Source: Eledone cirrhosa
Lineage: Eukaryota
Direction: 5' to 3'
DNA: 64,000 nucleotides
Assembly (NCBI GenBank): GCA_964016885.1
Contig: OZ024747.1
Span: 85,746,001-85,810,000 of the forward strand
Of this stretch, positions 34,659-35,388 are shown piece after piece. The position numbers and the translations under genes were made by a program. The notes under the pieces are model-generated. The model saw only the letters and a list, made by a program, of their open reading frames with translations. It was not told the origin of the DNA and searched no databases. Numbering within the stretch: the first letter of the stretch is position 1; every line of letters starts with the position of its first letter.

Positions 34659-35388
34659 TACAAACAAGATAGACAAACAAAAGTATTCTATCTAACCTTG
34701 CTTGTATCTAGATCTCCCTCCCATGGTTTCATATGGGGAAGAATTGTTATTGGAACCACCAATAATTGAAGAATCCGCCATACTCTTCAGGGGAGTTTAA
34801 TTCTTCTAAATCTAAGAGAAATTGACCAAGAAATCATACATACTATTTCATTTGCCAAGGTAGCATGATGGAATATAAACACGCGTAGTGTTACGTGATG
34901 AAAAATCTCCTAGGGTATTAGAACTATGTGATAGGATTATAATTGTTTCTACTTTTGGCACAAGGCCAGCAATTACTCAGTGCATTGCTGGTACTTCATT
35001 TTATCGACCCCGTAAGGATGAAAGGCAAAGTTGACCGTGGCGGAATTTGAACTCAGAATGGCAAGGGACGTAACTCTTTGCTGCAAAGCATGGCGTCCGA
35101 CCCTCTACCGATACTGCCAATCCACCACCCTATGTGACAGGATTATAATGTCGCTAGAAACGTAACACTACGCGTGTTTATATTCCACCATGCTACCTTG
35201 GCAAATGAAATAGTATGTATGATTTCTTGCACAATTTCTCTTAGATTTAGAAGAATTAAACTCCACTGAAGAGTATGGCAGATTATTCAATTATTGGTGG
35301 TTCCGATAACAATTCTTCCCCATGGTAGGGAGATCTAAATATAAGCGATTTTAGATAGAATACTTTTTGTTTGTCTATCTTGTTTGTA
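34659..35388. mobile_element. Fold-back element (arms 34659-34896 and 35160-35388), each arm carrying a damaged hammerhead
   Basis: ~235-bp inverted arms; arm consensus ctccc-CTGAAGA-gtatgg..ccatat-GAAAC-CATG-GTA|gggag. Confidence 0.85.
34944..35130 (-). mobile_element. SINE family A inserted in the fold-back spacer
   Basis: 19-bp TSD tatgtga(t/c)aggattataat at 34925-34943 and 35131-35149. Confidence 0.95.

What the first reader, a model, noticed from the sequence alone, without database searches (positions are those of the whole stretch)
34659..35388. Older fold-back with complementary ribozyme lesions and a SINE in its loop
The left arm (minus strand) keeps CUGAAGA, stem II and GAAAC but has GGA at the cleavage triplet. 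The right arm keeps GUA|gggag but has lost atgaaaccat, apparently through a ccat microhomology. Together they reconstruct a complete hammerhead with a long stem II. A SINE with a 19-bp TSD later inserted into the spacer. The arm divergence and the nested insertion argue that this palindrome is real genomic DNA rather than a sequencing artefact.
Basis: partly seen in the sequence, partly recalled or inferred. Interest (0 to 1): 0.7.

Follow-up and report, generated by a model that had tools for sequence, protein, structure and literature searches.

The report
Decayed Penelope-type hammerhead repeat palindrome
This palindrome is two back-to-back, decaying copies of a common non-coding repeat that carries a predicted self-cutting RNA motif, likely inserted together by a Penelope-like jumping gene and likely interrupted later by a SINE, and its matching ribozyme breaks are most likely chance decay, so it is ordinary.

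Summary
In detail: inverted arms (94% identical, plus a 10-nt deletion), the two lesions and a SINE with a 19-20 nt duplication are all there. The arms belong to a dispersed repeat family (at least 400-700 first-look candidates) with a 460-nt, ORF-less, circularly permuted unit and one type I hammerhead motif, whose stem II domain is 53 nt. Most copies have the core letters, so the 'reconstruction' is just the family state. Head-to-head pairs are routine (18 of 76 sampled sites, none tail-to-tail nearby), 3' ends pile up at AT-rich sites, and this insertion has a one-sided tail of about 38 nt. These are published hallmarks of Penelope-like insertions, and this scan has noted the same architecture many times elsewhere in this genome. 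Copies decay neutrally: 38 of 55 have a broken core, and about 5% of random pairs would be 'complementary'. One oddity remains: the two arm RNAs are predicted to fold together into an active two-molecule hammerhead, better than 49 other partners. A read-through RNA would bury it in a hairpin, and expression of the locus is untested. Verdict: ordinary fossil; new family of a known kind.

The parts
34621..34658 (-). One-sided tail (about 38 nt): family sequence beyond the point where the right arm stops; ends at the family's main AT-rich 3' end, beside (CA)n/(TA)n
   Evidence: (3' end at unit position 166 against 130 for the right arm)
34659..34896 (-). Left arm, family sense on the minus strand
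34714..34795 (-). Left type I hammerhead motif: stem I, CUGAAGA, 53-nt stem II domain (9 bp with one bulge, large internal loop, 7-bp hairpin), GAAAC, palindromic stem III loop; U16.1 changed to G at 34720, predicted not to self-cleave
34897..34943 (-). Unpaired 5' extension of the left copy (family sequence); 34924-34943 is one copy of the SINE target duplication; TTTTT from 34905 is a predicted Pol III stop ahead of the left ribozyme
34944..35129 (-). SINE of about 190 nt with A-box- and B-box-like motifs (box reading and tRNA-type label recalled); more than 10 related copies in the window
35130..35159 (-). Second copy of the target duplication (35130-35149) and the 5'-truncated start of the left copy; inversion junction at 35159/35160 with about 1 nt of microhomology
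35160..35388 (+). Right arm: inverted, 5'-truncated second copy ending at the family's inner 3' end, followed by (TA)n
35261..35332 (+). Right hammerhead remnant: CUGAAGA kept, 3' strand of stem II and GAAA lost (10-nt deletion at CCAT 35320-35323), GUA|GGGAG kept (cut site after 35327)

Best explanation
The palindrome is two head-to-head, 5'-truncated copies of a 460-nt non-coding repeat carrying a predicted hammerhead ribozyme, likely written into an AT-rich microsatellite in one event by the reverse transcriptase and endonuclease of a Penelope-like element acting in trans, and likely dead since. Shown: the family, its ORF-less circularly permuted unit, the clustered 3' ends, the head-to-head bias, the one-sided tail, the variants private to both arms, and the SINE site empty in other copies. 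Inferred: the enzyme cut both DNA strands and primed cDNA twice on the same more-than-unit (tandem or circular) RNA, at two internal start sites about 38 nt apart (unit positions 166 and 130); the two truncated cDNAs were joined centre to centre; a SINE then inserted in the unpaired part; about 3% substitutions per arm and one microhomology deletion broke both ribozymes by neutral decay. In the source element the ribozyme would work as a dimer through its palindromic stem III (inferred from published Penelope and retrozyme hammerheads).
For: Family of at least 457, 701 and 414 first-look candidates for three queries. Period 460 nt in two tandem copies and 439 in one with a deletion; longest stop-free frame 67 codons in three long copies, GC 30-34%; no shared upstream sequence leading to an ORF in the single-orientation loci checked. 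Of 76 independent sites, 18 are head-to-head and none tail-to-tail within 320 nt; 76 of 94 3' ends fall in four windows covering 16% of the unit, forming two pairs 30-40 nt apart; 50 of 76 such ends are followed by microsatellite against 20% background. Published Penelope-like insertions show an adjacent inverted 5'-truncated copy, a 30-40 bp tail at one end, a microsatellite bias (PMC8557442, passages), head-to-head palindromes and microhomology deletions (PMC3846280, passages), and hammerhead pairs 100-700 bp apart on opposite strands (PMC4209133). In vitro, a Penelope protein cleaves and extends both strands, and the tail lies between two internal RT start sites (PMC11167929). In 8 of 18 pairs the short arm holds 26 nt or more absent from the long arm, which snap-back copying of the first cDNA cannot give. 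The arms share variants rare or absent in 34 other copies and are closer to each other (94.3%) than to any other copy (88.6%). Neutral decay.
Against: No autonomous partner was found; the two Penelope ORF fragments near family copies (L054, L023) lie beyond the family's 3' end and a (TA)n run and look like separate insertions. In this particular pair the short arm is fully nested in the long arm, so snap-back is not excluded here. No target duplication can be read in the microsatellite flanks. The sample is the best-scoring part of the family (40 of several hundred candidates scored per search), and the 3'-end windows were drawn after seeing the data. The left arm has 0 of 7 changes in its enzyme half against 5 of 10 in the right arm (one-sided P 0.04, post hoc). 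The motif reaches no Rfam gathering score and shows no covariation beyond shuffles.
Confidence: 0.85

Rival explanations
1. Snap-back: one cDNA was made from the tail inward, its 3' end folded back and copied itself to give the right arm. Same element, different route to the palindrome.
For: The right arm is nested in the left copy (0 of 238 nt absent) and shares its private variants. Self-priming is the model proposed in PMC3846280.
Against: Only about 1 nt of microhomology at the junction. The right arm stops at a recurrent family 3' end (7 of 94 ends at 120-135). 8 of 18 family pairs are not nested. The arms differ at two sites that are dimorphic in the family (positions 198 and 201).
Confidence: 0.3
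2. Split ribozyme kept by selection: the arms are transcribed outward as two RNAs; the left supplies the catalytic core and the right the cleavage site in a two-molecule hammerhead.
For: The co-fold minimum of the two arm RNAs is the active arrangement (-51.7 against -41.8 kcal/mol apart; 8-bp intermolecular stem III), with helix probabilities 0.88, 0.72 and 0.89; the right arm ranks first of 50 cleavable partners for the left arm. No change in the left enzyme half (P 0.04, post hoc).
Against: 3 of 50 partners pass 0.5 by chance and the left homodimer is as stable. A read-through RNA pairs 85-94% of either ribozyme to the other arm; SINE-driven RNA would meet TTTTT before the left ribozyme. 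Both arms changed at about the same overall rate.
Confidence: 0.03
3. Post-insertion inverted duplication: a single copy was duplicated in reverse by DNA repair or replication, unrelated to retrotransposition.
For: Nested arms with shared variants; the genome also holds larger inverted duplications that include a family copy (L085/L086).
Against: The inverted part holds only element sequence and no flank, ends at a recurrent element 3' end, and the head-to-head form recurs at 18 of 76 sites with none tail-to-tail.
Confidence: 0.05
4. Assembly or long-read fold-back artefact.
For: No listed short-read contig bridges the inversion junction or the outer left arm.
Against: 13 substitutions and a deletion between the arms, a nested SINE with duplication, and exact contigs for both the left inner arm with spacer and the right arm with its deletion.
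Confidence: 0.02

Closest known systems
Insertion units of endonuclease-bearing Penelope-like elements (PMC8557442 passages; PMC3846280 passages; PMC11167929 passages and second part of main text)
   Same: Partial tandems, an inverted 5'-truncated copy head to head, 30-40 bp tail on one end, AT-rich or microsatellite targets, hammerhead near the 3' end, microhomology deletions in dead copies.
   Different: No RT/GIY-YIG ORF in the unit; the sequence after the 3' ends runs round into the next unit instead of into an ORF; no autonomous partner found; two pairs of 3' ends rather than one.
Metazoan non-LTR retrozymes (PMC7229834 passages; bioRxiv 10.64898/2026.07.22.740005, parts 1-2 of 5)
   Same: Non-coding, low-GC unit of a few hundred nt, one type I hammerhead per unit, more-than-unit copies; proposed there to derive from Penelope pLTRs.
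   Different: Mostly dispersed sub-unit to 1.7-unit copies, no long arrays seen; 460 nt is at the upper end of the reported range; no RNA circles shown; no sampled site had two intact ribozymes in tandem.
Minimal and palindromic-stem-III hammerheads of metazoan Penelope elements (PMC4209133, parts 1-2 of 4)
   Same: Type I, 5-bp stem I, 2-bp stem III closed by a palindromic loop, enlarged stem II with a bulge, G at 10.1, pairs on opposite strands within 100-700 bp.
   Different: The stem II domain is 53 nt with a second hairpin, far longer than the 6-8 bp described; position 11.1 is U more often than C (GU 25, GC 12, AU 5 of 44); no extra nucleotide between A9 and G10.1.

Membership tests
Type I hammerhead ribozyme | Core CUGANGA ... 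GAAA ... UH in order | tested here: met
   Majority state at every core column in 55 copies; 17 of 55 fully intact. Neither window arm alone meets it.
Type I hammerhead ribozyme | Stems I, II and III can form around the core | tested here: met
   88.8% of cells paired against 39-53% for slid controls (the structure was drawn from these sequences); 5 of 55 copies keep all helices and the core.
Type I hammerhead ribozyme | Covariation or a curated model match | tested here: inconclusive
   No covariation beyond shuffles; no Rfam gathering hit in four loci with intact copies. A subfamily keeps a 9-bp stem II in another register, read by eye.
Type I hammerhead ribozyme | Self-cleavage after H17 | not testable with these tools
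   Needs an in vitro assay; 1 of 94 5' ends lies near the cut site, 3.5 expected.
Penelope-like element insertion | Inverted 5'-truncated copy, head to head | tested here: met
   18 of 76 sites head-to-head, none tail-to-tail within 320 nt.
Penelope-like element insertion | 30-40 bp tail at one end only | tested here: met
   Ends at unit positions 166 and 130 here; family ends cluster at about 130/170 and 213/245.
Penelope-like element insertion | AT-rich or microsatellite target | tested here: met
   50 of 76 canonical ends against 20% background.
Autonomous Penelope-like element | ORF with RT and GIY-YIG between pLTRs | tested here: not met
   Longest stop-free frame 67 codons in three long copies; no ORF continuing from the family in the loci fetched. 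Not filed as autonomous.
Non-LTR retrozyme | Non-coding tandem unit of 150-450 bp, low GC, one type I hammerhead per unit | tested here: met
   Period 460, GC 30-34%, copies up to 786 nt; slightly above the quoted size range.
Non-LTR retrozyme | [quoted passage not shown] | tested here: inconclusive
   Not seen in the 76 sites sampled, a small part of the family.
Non-LTR retrozyme | Expressed as linear and circular monomer RNA | not testable with these tools
   Needs RNA data from this species.
SINE insertion | Target duplication and empty site in other copies | tested here: met
   20-nt duplication with one mismatch; of 53 motif matches in 111 partly overlapping loci, the 4 followed by the SINE are all this locus.

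The most novel reading that the evidence does not exclude
Head-to-head Penelope palindromes are natural split ribozymes: outward transcription of the two arms gives two sense RNAs that dimerise through stem III, and at this locus decay has left one arm a pure enzyme and the other a pure substrate, an obligate trans-acting hammerhead pair born by subfunctionalisation in an animal genome.
Probability: 0.03. Interest if true: 0.75.

Novelty: new member of a known kind. Interest (0 to 1): 0.2.

Why it matters
As it most likely stands, little: one dead insertion of a non-autonomous Penelope-type repeat. Two things have modest value. The family has a hammerhead motif with a 53-nt stem II domain that standard descriptors and Rfam thresholds miss. 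Its insertions bear on an open mechanistic question, how Penelope elements make head-to-head copies: non-nested arms and paired 3' ends favour two primings over self-priming. If the two arm RNAs really cleaved in trans in vivo, it would be a natural split ribozyme made by duplication and complementary loss.

Tried and rejected
Rfam scan of the window: the 150 matches shown of 322 were all sub-threshold miRNA models on microsatellites and palindromes, with no hammerhead among them; four loci with intact copies gave no gathering hit. ARAGORN found no tRNA in the window, so the SINE's tRNA origin rests on recalled box motifs. Single-strand folding z-scores of the ribozyme regions were weak (-0.2 to -1.9), and intact single copies rarely favour the monomer fold; this is uninformative for a dimer-type ribozyme. 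Covariation test negative. Autonomous partner: upstream flanks and tblastn with two Penelope ORF fragments showed no ORF continuing from the family; a genome-wide search of Penelope ORFs for this pLTR was not run. Sequencing runs: no RNA holder listed. A 2.5-kb contig in run X5 that lies on the left arm carries the variants of another copy (they match L007 by eye), not this locus. Outer left arm without listed cover: no conclusion. Arm-to-arm gene conversion gradient (3 of 105 inner against 10 of 123 outer differences) not significant (P 0.15). A fold point at the ribozyme, as earlier notes found for other families, does not apply here: the junction lies 105-150 nt upstream of the core. Look-ups of earlier notes by sequence and by nearness gave nothing. 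Literature searches for octopus or cephalopod hammerheads or retrozymes and for natural bimolecular retrotransposon hammerheads listed no paper on this family; the library lacks most subscription papers, and no supplements were read.

Full report
Setting. The window lies in a 3.0-Gb genome with chromosome-scale contigs (G000:C7:85746001-85810000). It is rich in microsatellites and in a 190-nt SINE. From the look of the SINE I take the host to be an octopus; that is recalled and comes from no call.

The observation. The arms 34659-34896 and 35160-35388 align over 239 columns with 13 substitutions, a 10-nt deletion and a 1-nt indel. The left arm (minus strand) has stem I, CUGAAGA, a 53-nt stem II domain, GAAAC and a palindromic stem III loop, but G in place of U16.1 at 34720. 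The right arm keeps GUA|GGGAG (cut site after 35327) and has lost 10 nt between two CCAT words, which removes GAAA and the 3' strand of stem II; it also has four substitutions in the enzyme half. The SINE (about 34944-35129, minus) is flanked by a 20-nt duplication with one mismatch. Contigs of run X1 match exactly across the left arm, spacer and SINE junction and across the right arm's deletion; none listed spans the inversion junction, and X1 may be the assembly's own sample. With the arm divergence, this makes an artefact unlikely.

The family. Three DNA searches of the genome gave 457, 701 and 414 first-look candidates, of which 40 each were scored. The exact 30-mer covering the intact 3' core and cut site occurs 18 times and its reversed control 0 times; an exact 30-mer at the 5' core occurs 3 times. 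Tandem copies give a period of 460 nt (439 in one with a deletion); the longest single-orientation copy is 786 nt. Three long copies have no stop-free frame above 67 codons and 30-34% GC. 5' ends are scattered round the whole unit, and no shared upstream sequence leads to an ORF. The unit is therefore non-coding and was likely copied from a more-than-unit or circular RNA. The 'loop' of the palindrome, once the SINE is removed, is the family's own upstream sequence. Of 53 matches to the target motif in 111 partly overlapping loci, the only 4 followed by the SINE are this locus. So the SINE most likely arrived here after insertion; insertion into the source copy is not strictly excluded.

The ribozyme motif. 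In 55 full-span copies every core column has the canonical letter as majority, but only 17 keep both halves, and core columns are no better conserved (90%) than the rest (89%). Five of 55 keep the core and all three helices. On 44 of these copies the proposed helices are 88.8% paired against 39-53% for slid controls, with no covariation beyond shuffles. Rfam gives no gathering hit. This is the pattern of a motif kept in source elements and decaying in copies. The architecture (type I, short stem I, 2-bp palindromic stem III, long stem II) matches the dimer-type hammerheads of metazoan Penelope elements in PMC4209133 (parts 1-2 of 4 read), which also reports pairs 100-700 bp apart on opposite strands. 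The 53-nt stem II domain is longer than described there.

The palindrome. After dropping 10 loci that are tandem or segmental duplicates (L005, L011, L036, L038, L039, L042, L043, L044, L060, L086), 76 independent sites remain: 58 single-orientation, 18 head-to-head, none tail-to-tail within 320 nt (L085 and L086 face each other 2.3 kb apart inside a larger inverted duplication). 76 of 94 3' ends fall in four windows, drawn after seeing the data, that cover 16% of the unit and form two pairs 30-40 nt apart. 50 of these 76 ends are followed by microsatellite, against 20% background. This insertion ends at unit position 166 on the left and 130 on the right, leaving a one-sided tail of about 38 nt. 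An adjacent inverted 5'-truncated copy, a 30-40 bp one-sided tail and microsatellite targets are described for Penelope-like elements in PMC8557442 (passages); head-to-head palindromes and microhomology deletions in PMC3846280 (passages). PMC11167929 (passages and the second part of the main text) shows a Penelope protein cleaving and extending both strands, with the tail lying between two internal RT start sites. The non-coding tandem unit fits non-LTR retrozymes (PMC7229834, passages), which a preprint derives from Penelope pLTRs (10.64898/2026.07.22.740005, parts 1-2 of 5). Earlier notes of this scan report the same architecture in other families of this genome.

Mechanism. The arms share variants rare or absent in 34 other copies and are 94.3% alike, against at most 88.6% to any other copy, so they come from one template or one event. 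In 8 of 18 head-to-head pairs the short arm holds 26 nt or more that the long arm lacks; two of these have gaps of 41 and 222 nt and may be separate insertions. Here the short arm is nested, so snap-back remains possible. 8 of 94 5' ends lie at the start of the catalytic core (3.5 expected, P 0.02), weakly echoing earlier notes on an RNA start there; 1 lies at the cut site. This palindrome's junction lies 105-150 nt upstream of the core and has nothing to do with the ribozyme.

Are the lesions special? In 46 copies not picked by the exact-core pattern (window arms left out), two random copies are both broken 48% of the time and form an enzyme-only plus substrate-only pair 5% of the time (48% and 6.5% on all 55). 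Against my reading: the co-fold minimum of the two arm RNAs is the active two-molecule hammerhead with an 8-bp stem III (-51.7 against -41.8 kcal/mol), helix probabilities are 0.88, 0.72 and 0.89, and the right arm ranks first of 50 cleavable partners. The left arm also has 0 of 7 changes in its enzyme half against 5 of 10 in the right (P 0.04, post hoc). For my reading: 3 of 50 partners pass 0.5, the left homodimer is as stable, a read-through RNA pairs 85-94% of either ribozyme to the other arm, and a SINE-driven RNA would meet TTTTT at 34905 before the left ribozyme. The locus was also picked for this trait from many palindromes. I put in vivo function at 3%.

Verdict. A real but ordinary fossil: one head-to-head insertion of a non-autonomous Penelope-type, retrozyme-like repeat, interrupted by a SINE and decayed. 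It is not filed as an autonomous Penelope element (no ORF). My searches listed no paper on this family (library limits apply, no supplements read). Novelty: new member of a known kind. Interest 0.2.

Noticed in passing
window 53824-54163 and 54270-54571: Two further palindromes of unrelated sequence (96% and 95% self-identity), each with a CUGAUGA...GAAA hammerhead-like motif in both arms and (TA)n at one end.
   Followed up: partly
window 56421-56588 and 57192-57309: Two shorter palindromes (96% and 93%) with no hammerhead match in my motif scan.
   Followed up: no
window 34385-34535: A different, very high-copy repeat with a hammerhead-like core (CUGAUGG...CGAAAC; other copies have A at 34427, restoring CUGAUGA) just left of the finding.
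   Followed up: partly
window 59301-60284 (minus): Penelope-type RT fragment, 69% identical to the RT/GIY-YIG fragment in L023; not linked to this family.
   Followed up: partly
window 16649-17063: Two SINE copies in inverted orientation forming a palindrome-like pair.
   Followed up: no
L037, L052, L057, L059 (hammerhead region): A subfamily with a re-registered stem II (bulge moved, about 9 bp kept), suggesting the long helix was selected in source elements.
   Followed up: partly
L036, L038, L039, L042-L044 (G000:C4:23.33-23.34 Mb): A 2.17-kb tandem array, at least six units, each holding pieces of a family fold-back related to L020.
   Followed up: partly
L085/L086 (G000:C2:80.000-80.006 Mb): A 2.9-kb inverted duplication at 93% identity that carries a family copy in each arm.
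   Followed up: partly
L010, L020, L021, L033, L054, L070: 5' ends of family copies at or within a few nt of the first C of CUGAAGA (8 of 94 ends in a 17-nt window, 3.5 expected).
   Followed up: partly
L007 (G000:C21:8155635-8155879): A 2.5-kb, high-depth contig in run X5 carries this copy's variants by eye; it may sit in a transcript, but the run is not on record as RNA.
   Followed up: no
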